From the IMG/VR virus record IMGVR_UViG_2648501400_000010: a DNA stretch of 4,976 nt; one strand, given 5' to 3'. Below, piece by piece: positions 68 to 4,954 of this stretch. Source of the DNA: a virus. Taxonomy: Duplodnaviria; Heunggongvirae; Uroviricota; Caudoviricetes. Positions within the stretch are counted from its first letter, which is position 1. Every line of letters begins with the position of its first letter. The position numbers and the translations under genes were made by a program. The notes beneath the pieces are model-generated. The model did not search any database. It was not told the origin of the DNA and saw nothing but the letters and a program-made list of their open reading frames with translations.

Positions 68-1030
68 TTACCCCCTGAAGCCCGGCGGAATTTCAGTGTC
101 CGGTTCAGAAATGTGATTCACGCAACGCTGCGCAGGCGAACGCCCCAGGCGGATAACCAGTTCATCCCATTTTTCCCGGAGTTTTGCCGGACTCATGATG
201 TTTTTTACCCAGAACGAATCCCGCTGGAGACGCCCAAACATTTCACAAATTTGTCTGTGAGTTCTGCCATCCAGCATCCGCATTGTGCGAACGTCATTGG
301 CCCATGCTGTCCAGTTGGGTTCTTTCGGTCTAGTGATCTCGCCATCATCGCTGGCCGCCTGCTCGTAAAGACTCACGATTCGTCCCCAGATCCACTGTGC
401 GCACACCAAATCTTCCTGACTTCCCCACTGGCGTTTTTTCGCACTGAACACAACCGCGTCAGGGTGTCGGGTTAAAAAATCCTGTTCAGCCGTCTGCGGG
501 TCCGGTTGCGAAGCGTCCGGACAAGAAGATCTTTTATCTGACGGATCAGGTTTTAATACTGACGGATCGGGGTCAATCATCGCCCCCCTAATCGGCAGTT
601 TTTTATCAACAGTTGATCCATCAAAATTTGACGGGTCAACCGTTGAGGGGTCAATATTTGACGGGTCAACTGTTAACGGGTCATTTTTTGCCGGGCTAAT
701 TTTTCTTTTTGGTTTATATGACTCACGCGCCGCCGCCGCAGCTGCTTCGAGTTTTTCCACATTAAGCCGATAGATATTGCTTACATTACGCCCACCGACC
801 TTACGCTCTTCCTTCGTCAGCCAGCCCTCTTTCGCCAGTTCTGCAATAGCCGATTTCACTGTGGATTCACTTCTTGCACCGATCTGACGCCGGATAGTTT
901 CAATGGCAGGCCATGACACGCCCTCGTCATTGCTGTAGTCTGCAAGACGGGCCATAACCGCCACCCTGGATAAGATCATGCCGGTGAAGGCGCACCCTTC
1001 CCAGACAAGACCATGAAGCTTGCTGCTCAT
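68..1030 (-). CDS. Phage replication initiation protein, lambda O-like role (N-terminal winged-helix/HTH domain, repetitive linker, C-terminal domain)
   Basis: Long ORF in the track (68..1045, which starts at GTG). I prefer ATG at 1028-1030 (MSSKLHGLVW...) preceded by a G-rich SD. The N-terminal region (ILSRVAVMARLADYSNDEGVSWPAIETIRRQIGARSESTVKSAIAELAKEGWL) looks like the HTH domain typical of phage replication initiators. The gene sits where O (ydaU in Rac) sits, after the cro-like and cII-position genes. The linker encodes DPS(N/T)(V/I/F) pentapeptide repeats that coincide with the DNA iterons. Confidence 0.8.
   Translation of the reverse strand: MSSKLHGLVWEGCAFTGMILSRVAVMARLADYSNDEGVSWPAIETIRRQIGARSESTVKSAIAELAKEGWLTKEERKVGGRNVSNIYRLNVEKLEAAAAAARESYKPKRKISPAKNDPLTVDPSNIDPSTVDPSNFDGSTVDKKLPIRGAMIDPDPSVLKPDPSDKRSSCPDASQPDPQTAEQDFLTRHPDAVVFSAKKRQWGSQEDLVCAQWIWGRIVSLYEQAASDDGEITRPKEPNWTAWANDVRTMRMLDGRTHRQICEMFGRLQRDSFWVKNIMSPAKLREKWDELVIRLGRSPAQRCVNHISEPDTEIPPGFRG
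615..704. repeat. Phased 15-bp iteron array (consensus GACGGGTCAAnnTTT), candidate phage origin of replication embedded in the initiator gene
   Basis: Five tandem in-phase units at 630, 645, 660, 675 and 690 (gacgggtcaaccgtt / gaggggtcaatattt / gacgggtcaactgtt / aacgggtcatttttt / gccgggctaattttt). A degenerate in-phase unit lies at 615-629, and further copies at 540-554 (gacggatcaggtttt, in phase) and 567-581. Each unit ends in a T-tract, and an AT-rich stretch follows at 705-722. Confidence 0.7.
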
Positions 1031-1052
1031 AAAACCCCCGAACACCGTGCTT

Positions 1053-1478
1053 TTAGTGCATCACCACAGCATTCCCTGCCGGGCCGCCGCGATTCATCTG
1101 GTCATACAAAACAACCGCTGACGCAACAAAATCATCGACATCCTTCACCAGCCGATCCCTCCGTTCGACGATCTCACGGTAATATTCAGAACTGTGGCTG
1201 CGCATACGGGCCACCAGCAAAGGCGGCATCGCCTTTTCGATCGCCGGTAACAGAGCCTGCATTTTTTCAACAGCATCAGGGGTGTCCTTCTCCACCCAGC
1301 GGAAAATTTTCTGGGTATTACGGGCCAGGGCTTCCGGATGGCTGTCGTCGTACAGTTCCGGGAACGTCATTCCCAGCTCGAAATACGCTTTGGTAATTTT
1401 CGCAGCCGGTACTTTTTCGCCGTCCGGGTGCGCCCAGACATTCATCGCCATGCGGATGTGTTCATGCTTGATTTTCAT
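1053..1478 (-). CDS. ydaT: YdaT-family protein (CII-position regulator / toxic protein of Rac-type prophages)
   Basis: 141-aa ORF starting MKIKHEHIRMAMNVWAHPDGEKV, which I recognise as the YdaT family of Rac/CP-933P prophages (from memory, not a search). SD GGGGGTG lies upstream of the ATG (complement of 1476-1478). It is immediately downstream of, and overlaps by 17 nt, the Cro-like gene. Confidence 0.85.
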   Translation of the reverse strand: MKIKHEHIRMAMNVWAHPDGEKVPAAKITKAYFELGMTFPELYDDSHPEALARNTQKIFRWVEKDTPDAVEKMQALLPAIEKAMPPLLVARMRSHSSEYYREIVERRDRLVKDVDDFVASAVVLYDQMNRGGPAGNAVVMH

Positions 1479-1737
1479 GAATCACCCCCGCCTCTGGTTG
1501 TGTGTTAGCCTGATACTCGACAGGTAAGCCGTCGGTTGGGTTGGGATAAGTACTGCCATCAATCTCGTGCGGAGTTACTATCCAGCCTGTTGCTTCGCAC
1601 CAGCGTAAAATTTTTTTCCCCGTAAGTTTCGCCCGTCCGGTAATGACATGGCTTACCATCCCTTGGGTTACCCCAACAATTTCAGCAAAATGCTTCTGAG
1701 TTATACCGGAATGATGCAAATATTCTCCAAGATTCAT
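1462..1737 (-). CDS. ydaS: Cro-like HTH DNA-binding protein (YdaS family)
   Basis: 91-aa ORF with a Cro/CI-type helix-turn-helix (QKHFAEIVGVTQGMVSHVITGRAKLTGKKILRW). SD AGGTGA (complement of 1741-1746) is 3 nt from the ATG. It is divergently transcribed from the repressor gene, the classic cro position. Confidence 0.8.
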   Translation of the reverse strand: MNLGEYLHHSGITQKHFAEIVGVTQGMVSHVITGRAKLTGKKILRWCEATGWIVTPHEIDGSTYPNPTDGLPVEYQANTQPEAGVIHENQA

Positions 1738-1844
1738 TGTTCACCTCATGTGATGTCATCACGATCATTAATAGCATTGTTATTTTTAAAAGTAAATAGC
1801 ATCACTATTTCAAAGAGATTAATAATCTTATTAGAATTGAAGGT
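1738..1844. promoter_or_regulatory. Divergent promoter/operator region (OR-like) between the cro-like gene and the repressor gene
   Basis: Perfect 17-bp inverted repeat AAATAG-CATCA-CTATTT at 1794-1810 and weaker copy TAATAG-CATTG-TTATTT at 1769-1785, centres 25 bp apart. Leftward promoter candidates on the minus strand: -35 TTTACT (complement of 1791-1796), 17-bp spacer, -10 TATTAA (complement of 1768-1773). Additional 11-bp palindrome TGATGTCATCA at 1751-1761 near the predicted start. Rightward -10-like AATAAT at 1821-1826 with no good -35. Confidence 0.55.
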
Positions 1845-2345
1845 ATGAAAAGAAAATCCCTGTCAGAGATCGACCTGCAAGCCGCCCAGAGACTGAAAGA
1901 AATCTGGACGGCGAAAAAAAATCAACTAGGGTTAACCCAAGAGCGTGCGGCAGAAATTCTGGGATTTTCGACACAGGGAGCTGTAAGCCATTATCTAAAT
2001 GGTCAGACACCTTTAAATCTTGAGGCTGTTATCAAGTTCGCAGGGTTGCTGCAAGTTCCTCCCGAGTCAATCAGACCAGATATGGCCGAGTTGTTACAAA
2101 TTGTAAGGATGTATCCCCAAGAATCTGGGGAGGACAATGTTGTCACTATATCTGCAGATATGGAACAATCGGAAAACGAACTTCCGTTTAATATAGACCC
2201 CATGGAGCGGGATTTGCTCCAGACGTTCAGGGCTTTCCCCAAAGAAGATAAAGAGAAAATGCTTAAGGAAATGAAGGAGAAAAAAGAATCAATTGAAGAA
2301 ATCGTTGCGCGATGGCTAGCTGCGCAAAAGGGTCGTCGCGCCTAA
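1845..2345 (+). CDS. paaR: Prophage repressor, XRE-family HTH, no peptidase S24 domain (RacR / PaaR-like)
   Basis: 166-aa ORF with an N-terminal XRE-type HTH (LTQERAAEILGFSTQGAVSHYLNGQTP) and an acidic/lysine-rich C-terminus without the Ser-Lys autoprotease motifs of LexA/CI. It sits divergent from the cro-like gene and directly upstream of a small-antitoxin/ParE pair, the paaR-paaA-parE arrangement. The symbol is by architecture only; paralogue 1 versus 2 cannot be told. Confidence 0.8.
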   Translation: MKRKSLSEIDLQAAQRLKEIWTAKKNQLGLTQERAAEILGFSTQGAVSHYLNGQTPLNLEAVIKFAGLLQVPPESIRPDMAELLQIVRMYPQESGEDNVVTISADMEQSENELPFNIDPMERDLLQTFRAFPKEDKEKMLKEMKEKKESIEEIVARWLAAQKGRRA

Positions 2346-2362: not shown

Positions 2363-2554
2363 ATGAGTACAGCCCTTTCCCCGATAATTTCTGAATTTGA
2401 AACAGTCGAACAAGAAAACAGCTATAACGAATGGTTGCGAACCAAAGTGGCAGCAAGCCTCTCAGATCCCCGTCCTGCAATTCCACATGACGAAGTAATG
2501 GCTGAAATGGAAAACCTTATTGCTCAATTAGCTGCAACGAACAGGAGTGAGTAA
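2363..2554 (+). CDS. paaA: Small antitoxin of a ParE-type toxin-antitoxin module (PaaA-like, 63 aa)
   Basis: 63-aa ORF with SD AGGAGG at 2350-2355 and a 7-nt spacer. Its stop TAA overlaps the start of the downstream ParE-like gene (TAATG at 2552-2556). Size and position between a regulator and ParE match the PaaA antitoxins. Acidic, low-complexity and probably disordered. Confidence 0.7.
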   Translation: MSTALSPIISEFETVEQENSYNEWLRTKVAASLSDPRPAIPHDEVMAEMENLIAQLAATNRSE

Positions 2555-2844
2555 TGCTGCCCATTTTATGGCTACCTTCTGCACGTGATGATTTACGTCA
2601 GATCGTAGCCTATATTGCTAAGGAAAACCCTCCCGCTGCACGTAGACTAAAAATACGCATTGAAACATCAGTTTTGTCACTTACTGAACACCCTTATCTG
2701 TACCCACCGAGCGAAAGAGTTCCAAGTCTTCGTGAGATAGTGACTCATCCTAACTACATAATACTTTACCGAGTAACAGCATCTAACATCGAGATCGTAA
2801 ATGTAGTTCACTCACGAAGACAGTATCCAAACAAAACCTGTTAA
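2554..2844 (+). CDS. parE: ParE/RelE-superfamily toxin (ParE-like, gyrase-poisoning class)
   Basis: 96-aa ORF (MLPILWLPSARDDLRQIVAYIAKENPPAARRLKIRIETSVLSL...REIVTHPNYIILYRV...IEIVNVVHSRR) with the sequence pattern characteristic of ParE toxins (W near the N-terminus, DL..I..YIA, R.L...I, PY.G/P, REL/REI, Y.I.YRV, IEI..V.H.RR). Translationally coupled to the upstream small ORF. Confidence 0.85.
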   Translation: MLPILWLPSARDDLRQIVAYIAKENPPAARRLKIRIETSVLSLTEHPYLYPPSERVPSLREIVTHPNYIILYRVTASNIEIVNVVHSRRQYPNKTC

Positions 2845-2858
2845 TCCTTCCTGTCAAC

Positions 2859-2882
2859 AACCACCTTCGGGTGGTTTTTTTC
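2859..2882 (+). terminator. Rho-independent terminator after the toxin gene
   Basis: Stem AACCACC (2859-2865), loop TTCG, stem GGTGGTT (2870-2876), followed by a T-run to 2881, 15 nt after the parE-like stop. A T-tract is present only on the plus strand, so it is unidirectional. Confidence 0.75.
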
Positions 2883-2891
2883 TTGCCACGA

Positions 2892-2934
2892 TAATAGCAC
2901 TGCTATTTACATAATTAAATAGTAGTGGTATTGT
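2892..2934 (+). promoter_or_regulatory. PL-like promoter with paired operators for the rightward small-gene operon
   Basis: Operator-like inverted repeat TAATAG-CACTG-CTATTT at 2892-2908 and weaker AAATAG-TAGTG-GTATTG at 2917-2933, centres 25 bp apart. -35 TTTACA at 2906-2911, 17-bp spacer, -10 TATTGT at 2929-2934. Same motif and geometry as the sites at 1769-1810. Confidence 0.55.
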
Positions 2935-3026
2935 TCATTCATCAACTCACCCCGCCCCACAGAACGCCAGGCAATACTTCGAGTTACCCGGCAGTGGTCA
3001 GGGGTTAAGTAGCCAGCCCGAGGCGT

Positions 3027-3269
3027 ATGAACATGACGGCGGGAACACTTTATATAACAGCGCAGCAGTTTTTTAGTTCCGCTACCCCGGCGTTAAGGGG
3101 AAATGAGGTCAACATGGATATGCTCAATCTTGGCAACAACGAATCTCTGGTATGTGGCGTGTTCCCCAACCAGGACGGTACGTTCACCGCGATGACGTAT
3201 ACCAAAAGCAAAACGTTTAAAACCGAAAATGGTGCCCGTCGCTGGCTGGAAAGAAACTCAGGTGAGTGA
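3027..3269 (+). CDS. Small prophage early protein (80 aa from ATG 3027, or 51 aa from ATG 3114); resembles the small YdaF/YdaG-class proteins of Rac
   Basis: ORF in track. ATG 3114 has the better SD (GAGG 3105-3108, 5-nt spacer); ATG 3027 has GAGG with a 3-nt spacer. The 51-aa form (MDMLNLGNNESLVCGVFPNQDGTFTAMTYTKSKTFKTENGARRWLERNSGE) matches the size I recall for Rac YdaF, but I cannot verify identity. First gene after the PL-like promoter. Confidence 0.6.
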   Translation: MNMTAGTLYITAQQFFSSATPALRGNEVNMDMLNLGNNESLVCGVFPNQDGTFTAMTYTKSKTFKTENGARRWLERNSGE

Positions 3270-3270
3270 T

Positions 3271-3399
3271 ATGGATTTCGACACAATCATGGAAAAGGCT
3301 TACGAAGAATACTTCGATGGTCTTGCCGAAGGCGAAGAAGCTCTCAGCTTCAGTGAATTTAAACAGGCGCTTTCCAGTTCGGGAAAATCTAACGGCTGA
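3271..3399 (+). CDS. Small protein, 42 aa (MDFDTIMEKAYEEYFDGLAEGEEALSFSEFKQALSSSGKSNG), not in the supplied ORF track
   Basis: Own translation. ATG at 3271 is preceded by a strong SD AGGTGA (3260-3265, 5-nt spacer). The start sits 1 nt after the stop of the upstream ORF (TGAtATG), consistent with translational coupling. Acidic and helical in character. Confidence 0.55.
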   Translation: MDFDTIMEKAYEEYFDGLAEGEEALSFSEFKQALSSSGKSNG

Positions 3400-3428
3400 T
3401 AAGCGAAACAGCACCGCGAGGAATCAGT

Positions 3429-3647
3429 ATGCAGAAACGAGAACCCGTCATCATCGCGCCAGACTATACCGATGATGAACTTTATGAGTGGATGCGCCAG
3501 AAAATTAATGCAGCGCAGGATCTGAAATGGGCCAATGAAGCCAGGACTAAGCAGGCTGAAAATCTGTCCGCTCTGGAGCAGGATATCACCAGGCTGGAAA
3601 AAGCAGCGGCATTAAGCATTGCCAGAATGGTTACATACCCACGTTAA
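3429..3647 (+). CDS. Hypothetical small early protein, 72 aa, predicted coiled-coil
   Basis: ORF in track. SD GAGGA at 3418-3422 with a 6-nt spacer; 29 nt after the previous stop. Sequence (…AAQDLKWANEARTKQAENLSALEQDITRLEKAAALSIARM) is heptad-like. The position is analogous to the kil/host-takeover genes of the lambda PL operon, but there is no sequence-level identification. Confidence 0.6.
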   Translation: MQKREPVIIAPDYTDDELYEWMRQKINAAQDLKWANEARTKQAENLSALEQDITRLEKAAALSIARMVTYPR

Positions 3648-3669
3648 TAGCTAACCAACGAGGCTAATA

Positions 3670-4044
3670 ATGGAATTTAAAGATTTACCAATGCCATTCC
3701 AGGAAATGGCAGCGAATATAGTTCGTTCCCAACTGGCGACTCTTGACCTGAGTACCGTAGAAAAAGAAACCATCGATACTATATCCGGTAACGTGCGTCG
3801 TGCCTTTATCGGTCTGTACGAAGAGAAGCAGCTCTCTGATAACCAGGATTTACATGAAAAATACTTCCTGGAATTAATGGACATCATTAATAAAGGATTT
3901 GGCTTGTTAATGAAAAAGAAAGGGATTCGAATAGCTCCCCTTGAAAATCATTTTACAGCGAGCAGTATTAATTCCTGTGATTTAAAGCATCACACATCCG
4001 ATGGGAAAGTTGAATCAAACAACAAAATATCAATTAATCATTAA
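3670..4044 (+). CDS. Hypothetical protein, 124 aa, AT-rich 3-prime half (possible accessory/moron gene)
   Basis: ORF in track. SD GAGG at 3660-3663 with a 6-nt spacer; 22 nt after the previous stop. No recognisable domain by eye and no transmembrane segment. The C-terminal third is low-complexity and AT-rich (…SSINSCDLKHHTSDGKVESNNKISINH). Confidence 0.55.
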   Translation: MEFKDLPMPFQEMAANIVRSQLATLDLSTVEKETIDTISGNVRRAFIGLYEEKQLSDNQDLHEKYFLELMDIINKGFGLLMKKKGIRIAPLENHFTASSINSCDLKHHTSDGKVESNNKISINH

Positions 4045-4275
4045 TTTATTCACAGGTGAGGTAGAGTGCGTGCGCCGGACACGGATAAGAATCCGGCACT
4101 GACAGTTTACTGAAAAGGATACATCCCTGAAAAGTCAGGGCATAACACGAAAGCGCCCGGCGAGGTAGCTGGTTCATAGATAGCCTGTCGTTAAATTTTT
4201 GTCGACCGTGCGCTTCCGGTTGTGGCAATCCGCGAAATGGCGCGGCGGTAAGTATGGCGGGGTTATTCCTTCCCC

Positions 4276-4335
4276 CGTTGCGGACACCGGGTTGTCAGGT
4301 TGACCATACGCTTAAGTGACAACCCCGCTGCAACG
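4276..4335. other. Long imperfect hairpin / cruciform-capable element (about 17 bp paired over 60 nt)
   Basis: Outer stem 4276-4283 (cgttgcgg) pairs with 4328-4335 (8 pairs including one G-U). Inner perfect 9-bp stem GGGTTGTCA (4289-4297) pairs with TGACAACCC (4317-4325). 19-nt loop. No T-tract immediately after it on either strand, so it is not a canonical terminator. Confidence 0.5.
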
Positions 4336-4577
4336 CCCTCTGTTATCAATTTTCTGGTGACGTTTGGCGGTATCAGTTTTACTCCGTGACTGCTCTGCCG
4401 CCCTTTTTAAAGTGAATTTTGTGATGTGGTGAATGCGGCTGAGCGCACGCGGAACAGTTAAAACCAAAAACAGTGTTATGGGTGGATTCTCTGTATCCGG
4501 CGTTAATTGTTAACTGGTTAACGTCACCTGGAGGCACCAGGCACCGCATCACAAAATTCATTGTTGAGGACGCGATA

Positions 4578-4766
4578 ATGGAAACGTTATTACCAAACGT
4601 TAATACGTCTGAAGGTTGTTTTGAAATTGGTGTCACTATCAGTAACCCTGTATTTACTGAAGATGCCATTAACAAGAGAAAACACGAACGGGAGTTATTA
4701 AATAAAATATGCATTCTTTCAATGCTGGCCCGTTTACGTCCGATACAAAAAGGATGCTGGCAATGA
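4578..4766 (+). CDS. Hypothetical small protein, 62 aa (METLLPNVNTSEGCFEIGVTISNPVFTEDAINKRKHERELLNKICILSMLARLRPIQKGCWQ)
   Basis: Internal ATG of track ORF 4473..4766. SD GAGGA at 4566-4570 with a 7-nt spacer; the upstream ATG at 4473 has no SD. Stop overlaps the start of the next ORF (ATGA at 4763-4766). Confidence 0.45.
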   Translation: METLLPNVNTSEGCFEIGVTISNPVFTEDAINKRKHERELLNKICILSMLARLRPIQKGCWQ

Positions 4767-4954
4767 ATACAGCATTTGCACTTGTTCTGACAGTTTTTCT
4801 TGTTTCCGGAGAGCCAGTTGATATTGCAGTCAGTGTTCACAGGACAATGCAGGAGTGTGTGACTGCAGCAACCGAACAGAAAATTCCCGGTAACTGTTAC
4901 CCGGTCGATAAAGTTATTCACCAGGATAATAACGAAATCCCGGCAGGTCTTTAA
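4763..4954 (+). CDS. Hypothetical small protein, 63 aa, with N-terminal hydrophobic segment (signal peptide or membrane anchor) and two Cys
   Basis: In frame with track ORF 4709..4954. ATG at 4763 overlaps the stop of the upstream ORF (ATGA); AAGGA at 4749-4753. Sequence MNTAFALVLTVFLVSGEPVDIAVSVHRTMQECVTAATEQKIPGNCYPVDKVIHQDNNEIPAGL has about 15 hydrophobic residues at the N-terminus. Confidence 0.45.
   Translation: MNTAFALVLTVFLVSGEPVDIAVSVHRTMQECVTAATEQKIPGNCYPVDKVIHQDNNEIPAGL

What the first reader, a model, noticed from the sequence alone, without database searches (positions are those of the whole stretch)
2892..2934. Second operator pair with identical geometry at a PL-like promoter: lambda-style OL/OR architecture
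The same motif recurs 1.1 kb away: TAATAG-CACTG-CTATTT (2892-2908, 5 of 6 symmetric) and a weaker copy at 2917-2933, again 25 bp centre to centre. The strong site overlaps the upstream edge of a -35 (TTTACA 2906-2911) and the weak site overlaps the -10 (TATTGT 2929-2934). The sequence GCTATTTAC is shared verbatim with the cro-like promoter on the opposite strand. This implies one repressor controls both divergent early transcription units and defines the terminated repressor-antitoxin-toxin operon as lying between the two operator sets, as cI-rexAB does in lambda.
Basis: seen in the sequence. Interest (0 to 1): 0.65.

Follow-up and report, generated by a model that had tools for sequence, protein, structure and literature searches.

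The report
Second repressor operator pair at PL
This is a real second pair of repressor-binding sites sitting on the promoter of a prophage's cell-division-inhibitor operon, so one repressor probably silences both early operons as in phage lambda; it is a new specificity variant of a design already shown by experiment in sister prophages.

Summary
AATAG-N5-CTATT occurs exactly four times in the window at one mismatch or fewer (0.13 expected; 0 of 200 shuffles). The sites form two pairs, each 25 bp centre to centre. One pair lies on the cro-side promoter and one on TTTACA-17-TATTGT at 2906-2934.

- The 166-aa repressor has a lambda CI-type N-terminal domain.
- All 48 close relatives, and most distant ones from Citrobacter to Rodentibacter, carry the motif both upstream of the repressor gene and just past the repressor operon, on the -35 and -10.
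- In O157 Sakai prophages Sp4 and Sp12, the toxin-antitoxin genes and the PL leader are homologous to the window. The repressor DNA-binding domain, OR and the roughly 110-bp terminator/OL/PL cassette are all replaced together.
- The Sp12 promoter at the same position is PL933P, which experiments showed is repressed about 100-fold by PaaR2 and YdaS.

So this is a heteroimmune allele of the PaaR-PaaA-ParE / Qin-type immunity region, controlling the dicBF operon. I found no report of the operator specificity AATAGC-N3-GCTATT in the papers I searched, but the architecture is known. Binding has not been tested.

The parts
2892..2908 (.). OL site over the -35 (TAATAGCACTGCTATTT). The core AATAGC-N3-GCTATT is perfect, and its right half CTATTTACA contains the -35.
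   Evidence: Conserved at this position in 48/48 close relatives and in distant relatives as ...GCTATTGACA.
2917..2933 (.). OL site over the spacer and -10 (AAATAGTAGTGGTATTG), with 1 core mismatch. Its right half GGTATTGT contains the extended -10.
   Evidence: It lies 25 bp from the first site. Relatives have GCTATTGT or GCTAATATT at the same place.
2906..2934 (+). PL-like promoter (dicBp/PL933P equivalent): TTTACA, 17-bp spacer, TATTGT, with TG at -15/-14.
   Evidence: Promoter scan. It lies immediately upstream of the leader that is 92% identical to the leader downstream of the inferred PL933P site in Sp12.
2859..2883 (+). Intrinsic terminator ending the repressor-paaA-parE operon (AACCACC-TTCG-GGTGGTT followed by T7).
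   Evidence: Fold energy -10.4 kcal/mol, z = -2.15.
1769..1785 (.). OR site over the -10 of the cro-side promoter (TAATAGCATTGTTATTT), with 1 core mismatch.
1794..1810 (.). OR site over the -35 of the cro-side promoter (AAATAGCATCACTATTT, perfect). It abuts the -35 of the candidate PRM. Its centre, 1802, is about -42/-43 from the predicted PRM start.
   Evidence: The PRM geometry is an inference.
1818..1832 (.). Degenerate third OR site (ATTAATAATCTTATT, 2 mismatches), lying in the PRM spacer with its last base on the first base of the -10.
   Evidence: A site at about -27 from the repressor start is a match at 1 mismatch or fewer in many relatives. In the window it reaches only 2 mismatches.
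1768..1796 (-). Candidate PR (cro-side) promoter: TTTACT, 17-bp spacer, TATTAA.
   Evidence: Read. The scanner did not report it because the -10 lacks the final T. Sp12 has TATTAA at the place where I infer its PR -10; the paper reports 5' RACE starts in line with its predicted PR933P and PRM933P promoters, but I did not see the paper's boxed hexamers.
1809..1837 (+). Candidate PRM: TTCAAA, 17-bp spacer, TAGAAT. The predicted start at 1843-1845 makes the repressor mRNA leaderless or nearly so.
   Evidence: paaR2 was shown to be leaderless in CP-933P. For the window this is an inference.
1845..2345 (+). Repressor, 166 aa. It has a lambda CI-like HTH N-terminal domain and a PaaR-type C-terminal domain of about 48 aa.
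   Evidence: Pfam HTH_3. PDB CI N-terminal domain, E about 1e-9. C-terminal alignment with the Sp4 repressor and Sp12 PaaR2. phrog_5736.
1462..1737 (-). Cro-like (YdaS-type) HTH protein, 91 aa. Its helix TQGMVSH resembles the repressor's TQGAVSH.
2363..2844 (+). paaA (2363-2554) and parE (2554-2844) toxin-antitoxin cargo, lying between the repressor gene and OL.
   Evidence: Pfam PaaA2 E = 1e-21 and ParE_toxin E = 7e-18.
2941..4954 (+). Transcription unit controlled by PL: leader, ydfA (3114-3269), ydfB, ydfC (3429-3647), orf124 (3670-4044), DicF RNA (4352-4403), dicB (4578-4766) and ydfD. It continues beyond the window.
   Evidence: Rfam DicF 76.7 bits. Pfam DicB and DUF1391. 95% identity to K-12 Qin from 3075 onward. 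RefSeq annotation of relatives.

Best explanation
The window is the immunity region of a lambdoid (Qin / CP-933M / CP-933P-type) E. coli prophage. The 166-aa repressor (1845-2345) has a lambda CI-like HTH domain and most likely binds as a dimer to 15-17-bp palindromes with consensus AATAGC-N3-GCTATT.

Two such sites, 25 bp apart, lie on the rightward promoter at 2906-2934. One covers the -35 and one covers the spacer and -10. Occupancy would exclude RNA polymerase and silence the dicBF operon (ydfABC, DicF, DicB, ydfD and recombination genes beyond the window).

A matching pair, plus a degenerate third site, lies in the 107-bp repressor/cro intergenic region. There the same protein would shut off the cro-ydaT-replication operon. 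From the site abutting the PRM -35 it probably also stimulates its own leaderless transcript.

The repressor-paaA-parE operon ends at a terminator just before OL, so the toxin-antitoxin pair is cargo inside the immunity region, in the position of rexAB in lambda. The Cro-like protein, whose recognition helix is similar, probably uses the same sites.

Shown here: the sequence features, their conservation and their co-replacement. Inferred: binding, repression, autoactivation, and cooperative or looped binding through the PaaR-type C-terminal domain.
For: 1. Motif enrichment: 4 hits against 0.13 expected, all in the two regulatory regions, and 0 of 200 shuffles reached 4.

2. The same geometry holds at both promoters, 25 bp centre to centre over the -35 and the -10.

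3. Repressor residues 2-90 are homologous to the lambda CI N-terminal domain (1lmb, 3bdn and others; E about 1e-9).

4. The recognition helix TQGAVSHYLN is near-invariant across the family down to 46% identity.
   - All 48 close relatives with enough flank have OR sites and an OL pair.
   - In 21 distant loci, 38 hits fall in the 101-bp zone upstream of the repressor against 0.51 expected (Poisson P about 1e-56).
   - 7 of those 21 have a strict downstream pair against about 0.0014 expected per locus. Several others have one good and one degenerate site directly after the repressor gene.

5. In those relatives the flanks are unrelated but the design is the same...GCTATTGACA as the -35 and GCTATTGT or GCTAATATT as the -10.

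6. Positions 6 and 10 were not in the search pattern, yet they are conserved as C and G. This extends the half-site symmetrically to AATAGC.

7. Reciprocal test: a motif-only scan of 2.9 million viral contigs listed 84 stretches, of which 80 were analysed. 46 of those encode a relative of the repressor N-terminal domain at OL-type or OR-type distance and orientation.

8. Co-replacement in Sakai Sp4 and Sp12:
   - The repressors share only the C-terminal roughly 48 aa with the window's.
   - paaA-parE and the leader from 2945 onward are about 65-100% identical per 30-bp window (leader about 93-100%).
   - Window 2832-2944 and roughly 1485/1552-2211 drop to about 15-55% identity per 30-bp window.
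   - Each allele has its own repeat at both OR and OL: AAAACTGT/ACAGTTTT in Sp4 and GTTTAGT in Sp12.

9. Experiments on the promoter at the same position: PL933P is repressed about 100-fold by PaaR2 and YdaS (PMC8630535), and dicBp is derepressed 22-fold in a dicA deletion (PMC10448788).
Against: - No binding or expression data exist for this repressor or these sites. Everything specific to this allele is comparative inference.
- The -10-proximal sites at both promoters are imperfect, and ranking them strong or weak from symmetry alone is unsafe.
- The cro-side -10 (TATTAA) is non-canonical, and the promoter scanner did not report it.
- OL has only two recognisable sites, against three in lambda and in CP-933P. 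OR has two plus one degenerate site.
- The Cro-like protein is co-conserved with the repressor across the family. Comparative data therefore cannot say which of the two proteims, or whether both, reads the motif.
- In the 78%-identity group the OL site spacing varies from 24 to 28 bp because of a poly-A tract. The 25-bp spacing is therefore not strictly maintained.
Confidence: 0.85

Rival explanations
1. The palindromes are read only by the Cro-like (YdaS-type) protein and not by the 166-aa repressor. The repressor would act elsewhere, or only at OR.
For: The Cro-like gene is co-conserved with the motif in nearly all relatives. It too has an HTH_3 domain.
Against: The repressor's recognition helix is near-invariant across the family and similar to the Cro-like helix (TQGAVSH against TQGxVSH), which predicts shared sites as in lambda and 434. 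In CP-933P both PaaR2 and YdaS bind OR and both repress PL933P. A prophage whose repressor did not silence PL would express DicB and DicF.
Confidence: 0.06
2. The resemblance between the two regions is only shared promoter ancestry or AT-rich promoter composition (a duplicated promoter), with no operator function at 2892-2933.
For: Both regions are AT-rich promoters. The shared GCTATTTAC includes the -35, and the motif is itself AT-rich.
Against: Dinucleotide-preserving shuffles never reached 4 hits. Across relatives the half-sites are conserved while the central 3 bp and the inter-site spacer vary. The cassette is replaced in step with the repressor's DNA-binding domain in Sp4 and Sp12, even though the -10 (TATTGT in Sp4) and the leader are retained.
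Confidence: 0.04
3. The 12-bp inverted repeat at 2898-2927 (CACTGCTATTTA / TAAATAGTAGTG) acts as an RNA or DNA hairpin, for example a back-up terminator after 2859-2876, rather than as protein-binding sites.
For: The terminator scan lists it: 12 pairs, a loop of 6 and a T-rich tail.
Against: Only 3 of the 12 pairs are G-C. The complementarity follows automatically when two copies of one palindromic motif lie side by side. It overlaps a good promoter whose predicted start lies downstream of it, so it would not be in the PL transcript. A strong terminator already lies 20 bp upstream.
Confidence: 0.02

Closest known systems
CP-933P / Sp12 immunity region of E. coli O157:H7: paaR2-paaA2-parE2, YdaS, YdaT, OR1-3 and PL933P/OL1-3 (Jurenas et al. 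2021, PMC8630535)
   Same: - Gene order is the same: O-like gene, ydaT, cro-like gene, OR, repressor, paaA, parE, OL/PL, leader, dicB region.
- ydaT and the replication gene are 98.7% identical (window 70-1484).
- The PL leader is 92% identical (2943-3103).
- The repressor C-terminal domain is homologous.
- In Sp12 the stretch between parE2 and the conserved leader carries GTTTAGT repeats and the same -35/-10 hexamers as the Sp12 PR region. This fits the paper's description of PL933P, which it reports as repressed about 100-fold by PaaR2 and YdaS. That the two are the same element is my inference, since the paper gives no coordinates.
   Different: The repressor N-terminal DNA-binding domain is unrelated: CI-like HTH here against PaaR2's MQKKE... 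domain. The Cro-like protein differs. The operators differ: AATAGC-N3-GCTATT against GTTTAGTAA-type repeats. The window has two recognisable OL sites instead of three. It is therefore a different immunity specificity.
Phage lambda OL/OR with cI-rexA-rexB between them
   Same: Repressor and cro are divergent around a multi-site OR. A second set of the same 17-bp palindromic operator lies on the leftward early promoter. Adjacent sites are 23-25 bp apart (24 and 23 bp in lambda, from my own knowledge). The repressor operon carries accessory cargo and ends at a terminator before OL. The CI-type N-terminal domain is shared. An operator abuts the PRM -35, and the repressor mRNA is likely leaderless.
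   Different: There is no S24 peptidase / RecA-cleavable C-terminal domain (166 aa, PaaR-type C-terminal domain). No boxA/nut was found downstream of PL. OL has two sites rather than three. The operator sets are 1.1 kb apart rather than about 2.4 kb. The cargo is a ParE toxin-antitoxin pair. The best-matching site covers the -35 rather than the -10.
Qin cryptic prophage dicA-dicC switch and dicBp (Bejar et al. 1988, as cited in PMC10448788; Yun et al. 2012, PMC3441716)
   Same: The controlled operon is the same one: ydfA-ydfB-ydfC-DicF-dicB-ydfD, 95% identical from window 3075 onward. The repressor operators are repeated at the dicC/dicA intergenic region and at dicBp. The repressor is short and not SOS-cleavable.
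   Different: There is no homology left of 3075. DicA and its TGTTAG-N6-CTAACA-type operators are unrelated to the window's repressor and motif. Qin has no toxin-antitoxin cargo between dicA and dicBp.

Membership tests
Lambdoid immunity region with OR and OL operator sets | Divergent repressor and cro-like genes flanking a multi-site operator that overlaps both promoters | tested here: met
   Genes at 1845-2345 (+) and 1462-1737 (-) are both HTH_3. Sites lie at 1769-1785 and 1794-1810, with a degenerate one at 1818-1832. Candidate PR and PRM are present.
Lambdoid immunity region with OR and OL operator sets | A second set of the same operator motif on a promoter beyond the 3' end of the repressor operon, firing away from it | tested here: met
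   Sites at 2892-2908 and 2917-2933 lie on the promoter at 2906-2934. This is conserved in relatives.
Lambdoid immunity region with OR and OL operator sets | Repressor DNA-binding domain of the CI/434 HTH type | tested here: met
   phmmer against the PDB: lambda CI N-terminal domain chains, E = 9e-10 to 5e-9 over residues 2-90.
Lambdoid immunity region with OR and OL operator sets | The same repressor physically binds both operator sets and represses both promoters | not testable with these tools
   Only comparative support (co-conservation and co-replacement) and experiments on sister alleles.
Lambdoid immunity region with OR and OL operator sets | Lambda-type C-terminal S24 peptidase domain allowing RecA-stimulated autocleavage | tested here: not met
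   Pfam finds only HTH_3/HTH_31. The C-terminal 48 aa align with the Sp4 repressor and PaaR2 and with phrog_5736. A 52%-identical N-terminal domain in Stx phage Lys12581Vzw does carry the LexA-type C-terminal domain.
Lambdoid immunity region with OR and OL operator sets | Three operator sites in each set | tested here: not met
   OL has two sites only, with nothing recognisable 25 bp to either side. OR has two sites plus one with 2 mismatches. Some relatives have three good OR sites.
Lambdoid immunity region with OR and OL operator sets | N-type antitermination signal (boxA/nutL) downstream of PL | tested here: not met
   No boxA match better than 3 mismatches, at chance level. The leader fold is unremarkable, z = -0.01. 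There is no Rfam hit. Arsenophonus relatives do have CGCTCTTTAACAA after PL.
PaaR-PaaA-ParE three-component module in a CP-933M/P-type immunity region | PaaA2-family antitoxin followed by a ParE toxin, directly downstream of the regulator gene | tested here: met
   PF21217 PaaA2 E = 1e-21 and PF05016 ParE_toxin E = 6.6e-18. About 80% DNA identity to the Sakai Sp4 module.
PaaR-PaaA-ParE three-component module in a CP-933M/P-type immunity region | Regulator with the PaaR C-terminal domain (..LLQ.F.AFP.ED....L.E.K.KKES.E..IARW.AAQK.RRA) | tested here: met
   Three-way alignment with the Sp4 repressor and Sp12 PaaR2.
PaaR-PaaA-ParE three-component module in a CP-933M/P-type immunity region | PaaR2-type N-terminal domain and GTTTAGTAA-type operators | tested here: not met
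   The N-terminal domains do not align. The window operators are AATAGC-N3-GCTATT.
PaaR-PaaA-ParE three-component module in a CP-933M/P-type immunity region | YdaS/YdaT-type cro and cII analogues on the opposite strand | tested here: met
   PF06254 YdaT_toxin. Window 70-1484 is 98.7% identical to Sp12. A YdaT box, TTGATTTTCATGAATCAC, lies at 1468-1485.
Qin dicA/dicC - dicBp system | dicBF operon (ydfABC, DicF, dicB, ydfD) directly downstream of the regulated promoter | tested here: met
   Rfam DicF 76.7 bits. Pfam DicB E = 2e-37. 95% identity to K-12 from 3075 onward.
Qin dicA/dicC - dicBp system | DicA repressor and its Oc-type operator (TTGTTAGTCATAACTAACAA) | tested here: not met
   No nucleotide homology to K-12 left of window 3075. 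The operator sequences are different.

The most novel reading that the evidence does not exclude
The immunity determinant here is bipartite. One part is cro-OR-repressor N-terminal domain (about 1485-2211). The other is the roughly 110-bp terminator/OL/PL cassette (2832-2944). They are separated by a core conserved among heteroimmune prophages: the repressor C-terminal domain, paaA and parE.

The most novel reading is that this conserved core is a recombination scaffold that lets DNA-binding domains and operators be exchanged as modules. Any crossover inside it would create a repressor/OL mismatch. That mismatch would derepress DicB and DicF (and could separate the repressor from the toxin-antitoxin pair), so hybrids would be purged and the two halves kept matched.

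The wide retention of one N-terminal domain/operator pair (AATAGC-N3-GCTATT) combined with three different C-terminal solutions fits such domain shuffling. The three are the PaaR-type domain, the S24 peptidase domain, and a second HTH in the 244-aa Providencia-type proteins.
Probability: 0.2. Interest if true: 0.5.

Novelty: new member of a known kind. Interest (0 to 1): 0.3.

Why it matters
The promoter under these sites drives DicF, DicB and YdfD. These are cell-division inhibitors and a lysis protein, all toxic when derepressed. The OL sites are therefore what keeps this prophage harmless in its hosts, which include O104:H4 outbreak-lineage and STEC strains.

Defining the operator (AATAGC-N3-GCTATT) and showing that it travels with a recognisable repressor helix gives a sequence-only way to assign prophages to this immunity group. 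It also predicts cross-repression between co-resident prophages.

The three-allele comparison (window, Sp4, Sp12) extends the experimentally studied CP-933P switch to a family in which DNA-binding domain and operators are swapped around a constant toxin-antitoxin core. It does not reveal a new mechanism.

Tried and rejected
- RNA element in the PL leader (put- or nut-like). The fold of 2941-3116 is no better than shuffles (z = -0.01). Rfam at a permissive E-value gives only noise. There is no boxA. Rejected for this window.
- The 2898-2927 hairpin as a terminator. It is a by-product of two adjacent palindromes, is AT-rich, and lies upstream of the predicted PL start. Rejected.
- A solved structure for the repressor C-terminal domain. 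There is no meaningful PDB hit; the best is E = 1.1, a protoglobin.
- Is the repressor the published PaaR1 or PaaR2? It is neither. The Sp4 (CP-933M-type) repressor has 133 aa and Sp12 PaaR2 has 123 aa, and both have different N-terminal domains. That Sp4 corresponds to CP-933M and carries PaaR1 is from my own knowledge, not a tool result.
- The EDL933 record NC_002655.2 is not in the collection, so I used Sakai instead.
- Literature search for the RefSeq protein accessions found nothing. No cultured phage in the phage collection carries this repressor at 60% identity or above.
- Discriminating the repressor from the Cro-like protein as the motif reader by looking for relatives with a different cro failed, because cro is co-conserved.
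- The YdaT-box search at 3 mismatches is at chance level. Only the 1-mismatch hit at 1468-1485 stands out.

Full report
**Observation**

The window was read in full.
- 2892-2908 is TAATAGCACTGCTATTT.
- 2917-2933 is AAATAGTAGTGGTATTG.
- Their centres, 2900 and 2925, are 25 bp apart.
- The first site's right half runs into TTTACA (2906-2911). The second site's right half contains TATTGT (2929-2934).
- The independent promoter scan reports exactly this promoter, with a 17-bp spacer and a TG extended -10.
- The OR sites are TAATAGCATTGTTATTT (1769-1785) and AAATAGCATCACTATTT (1794-1810), also 25 bp apart.
- GCTATTTAC (2902-2910) recurs as its reverse complement at 1792-1800.

The pattern AATAG-N5-CTATT at one mismatch or fewer hits these four places and nowhere else in 4976 bp. 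The expectation is 0.13, and 0 of 200 dinucleotide-preserving shuffles reached four.

**Context**

The genes, from left to right:
- an O-like replication gene (68-1045, minus strand)
- a YdaT/cII analogue (1053-1478, minus strand)
- a Cro-like HTH protein (1462-1737, minus strand)
- a 166-aa HTH repressor (1845-2345)
- a PaaA2-family antitoxin (2363-2554)
- a ParE toxin (2554-2844)
- an intrinsic terminator (2859-2876 plus T7)
- the promoter in question
- ydfA, ydfB, ydfC, a 124-aa ORF, DicF RNA (Rfam 76.7 bits), dicB and ydfD

RefSeq relatives continue with an exonuclease, excisionase and integrase. The promoter is therefore the PL equivalent of a lambdoid prophage and drives the dicBF operon. 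ydfA most likely begins at 3114, the annotated start in relatives, and not at 3027. This places the prophage with the Qin / CP-933M / CP-933P group rather than with Rac.

**The repressor**

Residues 2-90 match the lambda CI N-terminal domain in the PDB (1lmb, 3bdn, 7jvt; E about 1e-9). The C-terminal roughly 48 residues align with the repressors of O157 Sakai prophages Sp4 and Sp12 (the Sp12 one is PaaR2). There is no S24 peptidase domain.

In an alignment of 21 family members down to 46% identity, the recognition helix TQGAVSHYLN is near-invariant (9 of its 10 positions are invariant).

**Comparative test 1: the same helix goes with the same motif at both places**

I collected 78 related loci.
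- All 48 close relatives (75% identity or more) with enough downstream sequence have OR sites and an OL pair.
- In 21 distant loci (Citrobacter, Rouxiella, Yersinia, Providencia, Proteus, Arsenophonus, Rodentibacter, Methylobacter, an Stx phage and Rac-SA53), 38 motif hits fall in the 101 bp upstream of the repressor start. The local background predicts 0.51 (P about 1e-56).
- Seven of the 21 have a strict pair 22-27 bp apart just beyond the repressor operon, against about 0.0014 expected per locus. Several more have one good and one degenerate site there.

The surrounding sequence is unrelated in these loci, but the design is the same. The right half of the first site supplies the -35 (GCTATTGACA). 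The right half of the second supplies the -10 (GCTATTGT or GCTAATATT).

Positions 6 and 10 were not part of the search pattern, yet they are conserved as C and G. The real half-site is therefore AATAGC, and the central 3 bp carry little information.

**Comparative test 2: reciprocal search**

I scanned 2.9 million viral contigs with only the DNA pattern AATAG-N5-CTATTKAC-N6-7-AWTAG. The scan listed 84 stretches, of which 80 were analysed. 46 of those encode a relative of the repressor N-terminal domain, some only 25-47% identical. In each of these the motif sits either at OL distance on the same strand or at OR distance on the opposite strand. Most of the rest are AT-rich chance matches or truncated loci.

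**Comparative test 3: co-replacement in heteroimmune sister prophages**

Sakai Sp4 and Sp12 have the same gene order.

Against Sp4:
- identity is 65-90% across 2212-2830 (repressor C-terminal domain, paaA, parE)
- it falls to about 33-53% per 30-bp window across 2832-2944 (terminator, OL, PL)
- it returns to 93-100% from 2945 onward
- the repressor N-terminal domain, OR and cro are also unrelated

Sp4 uses AAAACTGT/ACAGTTTT repeats at both OR and OL. Sp12 uses GTTTAGT repeats at both.

Against Sp12, window 70-1484 is 98.7% identical and the leader at 2943-3103 is 92% identical. The operator regions and the DNA-binding domain differ.

Three alleles, each with its own repeat at both positions, embedded in shared flanks, is the classical signature of an immunity specificity that includes OL.

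**Experimental anchors**

In CP-933P (identical to Sp12 according to the paper), PaaR2 and YdaS footprint OR. A promoter named PL933P, with OL1-3, is repressed about 100-fold by either protein (PMC8630535). In Sp12, the sequence between parE2 and the conserved leader carries GTTTAGT repeats and the same -35/-10 hexamers as the Sp12 PR region. This fits the paper's description, so I take PL933P to be the promoter at the same position as window 2906-2934. The paper gives no coordinates, so that is an inference.

In K-12 Qin the same operon is driven by dicBp, which is derepressed 22-fold in a dicA deletion. Operator sequences are described at both the dicA/dicC and the dicA/dicBp intergenic regions (PMC10448788; PMC3441716). 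K-12 homology to the window starts only at 3075, so the window's PL/OL lies within the allele-specific segment.

**Mechanism proposed**

Repressor dimers occupy the two OL sites, cover the -35 and -10, and exclude RNA polymerase from the dicBF promoter. The same happens at PR.

The perfect OR site (centre 1802) abuts the -35 of a candidate PRM: TTCAAA, 17-bp spacer, TAGAAT, at 1809-1837. The predicted start at 1843-1845 would make the repressor mRNA leaderless, as was shown for paaR2. The site centre would then sit at about -42/-43, the position from which lambda CI at OR2 activates PRM (my own knowledge). A degenerate third site (1818-1832) lies in the PRM spacer and just touches the -10.

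The Cro-like protein has a similar helix (TQGMVSH) and is co-conserved with the motif, so it probably shares the sites. The paper states that PaaR2 octamerises in solution. Because the C-terminal domain is shared, cooperative or looped binding across the 1.1 kb between OL and OR is plausible but untested.

Every step involving binding is an inference.

**Limits**

- There are no data on this allele itself.
- The PR -10 (TATTAA) is non-canonical and the scanner did not report it.
- OL has two sites rather than three.
- The strong/weak labels rest on symmetry alone.
- In the 78%-identity group a poly-A tract changes the OL spacing to 24-28 bp.
- No nut or put element follows PL.

**Novelty**

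The architecture is already known from lambda, Qin and CP-933P. What is added here:
- a third immunity allele in the PaaR-PaaA-ParE prophage group, present in 70 of 5426 complete E. coli genomes (OL near-identical in 42)
- its operator consensus
- the wide phylogenetic reach of this N-terminal-domain/operator pair
- the bipartite nature of the swapped segment

No cultured phage in the phage collection has this repressor at 60% identity or above. No paper in the library mentions the protein accessions.

It is a new member of a known kind, of modest interest.

Noticed in passing
window 1468-1485: TTGATTTTCATGAATCAC matches the published YdaT recognition sequence TTGATT-N6-AATCAA with one mismatch (0.04 expected; 7 of 200 shuffles had a hit). 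It lies at the cro-like/ydaT junction, exactly where 98.7% identity to Sakai Sp12 ends (1484). It may be the PRE-like YdaT-activated promoter site described for CP-933P.
   Followed up: partly
window 606-695: An array of about five to six copies of a 15-bp unit (TCAAC.GTTGA.GGG-like) inside the O-like replication gene (68-1045, minus strand). It resembles origin iterons embedded in the initiator gene, as in lambda ori.
   Followed up: partly
window 1809-1845: The candidate PRM (TTCAAA-17-TAGAAT) ends 7 nt before the repressor ATG, so the repressor mRNA is probably leaderless. A -10-like element at a similarly short distance from the ATG is seen in several distant relatives.
   Followed up: partly
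window 2215-2345, compared with L084 (Sakai Sp4) and L086 (Sakai Sp12): Three repressors with unrelated DNA-binding domains share a conserved C-terminal domain of about 48 aa (..LLQ.F.AFP.ED..K.L.E.K.KKES.E..IARWLAAQK.RRA). The 244-aa Providencia/Proteus-type relatives carry two HTH domains: the window type followed by one resembling the Sp4 type. This points to domain shuffling.
   Followed up: partly
L044-L051 and L061 (IMG/VR loci with a 78%-identical repressor), OL region at about +1060 to +1089 from the repressor start: A poly-A tract between the two OL sites varies in length, giving site spacings of 24-28 bp and therefore -35/-10 spacers longer than 17 bp. This could be promoter decay or phase-like variation in cryptic prophages.
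   Followed up: no
L082 (Stx phage Lys12581Vzw), locus 4310-6729 and about 6832: A CI with a 52%-identical N-terminal domain and a LexA-type C-terminal domain is followed by a DNA methyltransferase and a BsuBI-type restriction endonuclease. The next motif hit lies beyond them. The interval between the repressor gene and OL therefore holds different cargo in different phages: a toxin-antitoxin pair here, a restriction-modification system there, and nothing in Rouxiella or Yersinia.
   Followed up: no
L012/L013 (Arsenophonus), just downstream of the OL pair: CGCTCTTTAACAA, a perfect boxA-like sequence, follows the PL-like promoter. This suggests N/nut-type antitermination in those relatives. Nothing comparable is present in the window.
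   Followed up: no
window 3670-4044: A 124-aa ORF (phrog_6937, function unknown) lies between ydfC and DicF. It is absent from K-12 Qin, where homology is interrupted at about 3667-4051. Relatives carry other inserts at this spot, for example a Rha-family regulator in strain fS10a.
   Followed up: no
window 2935-2950 and the equivalent positions in relatives: The first transcribed bases after the -10 contain CATCAAC or CATCGAC in E. coli, Yersinia, Rouxiella and Providencia relatives, although the flanks are unrelated. This may be a conserved initial transcribed sequence at PL-type promoters.
   Followed up: no
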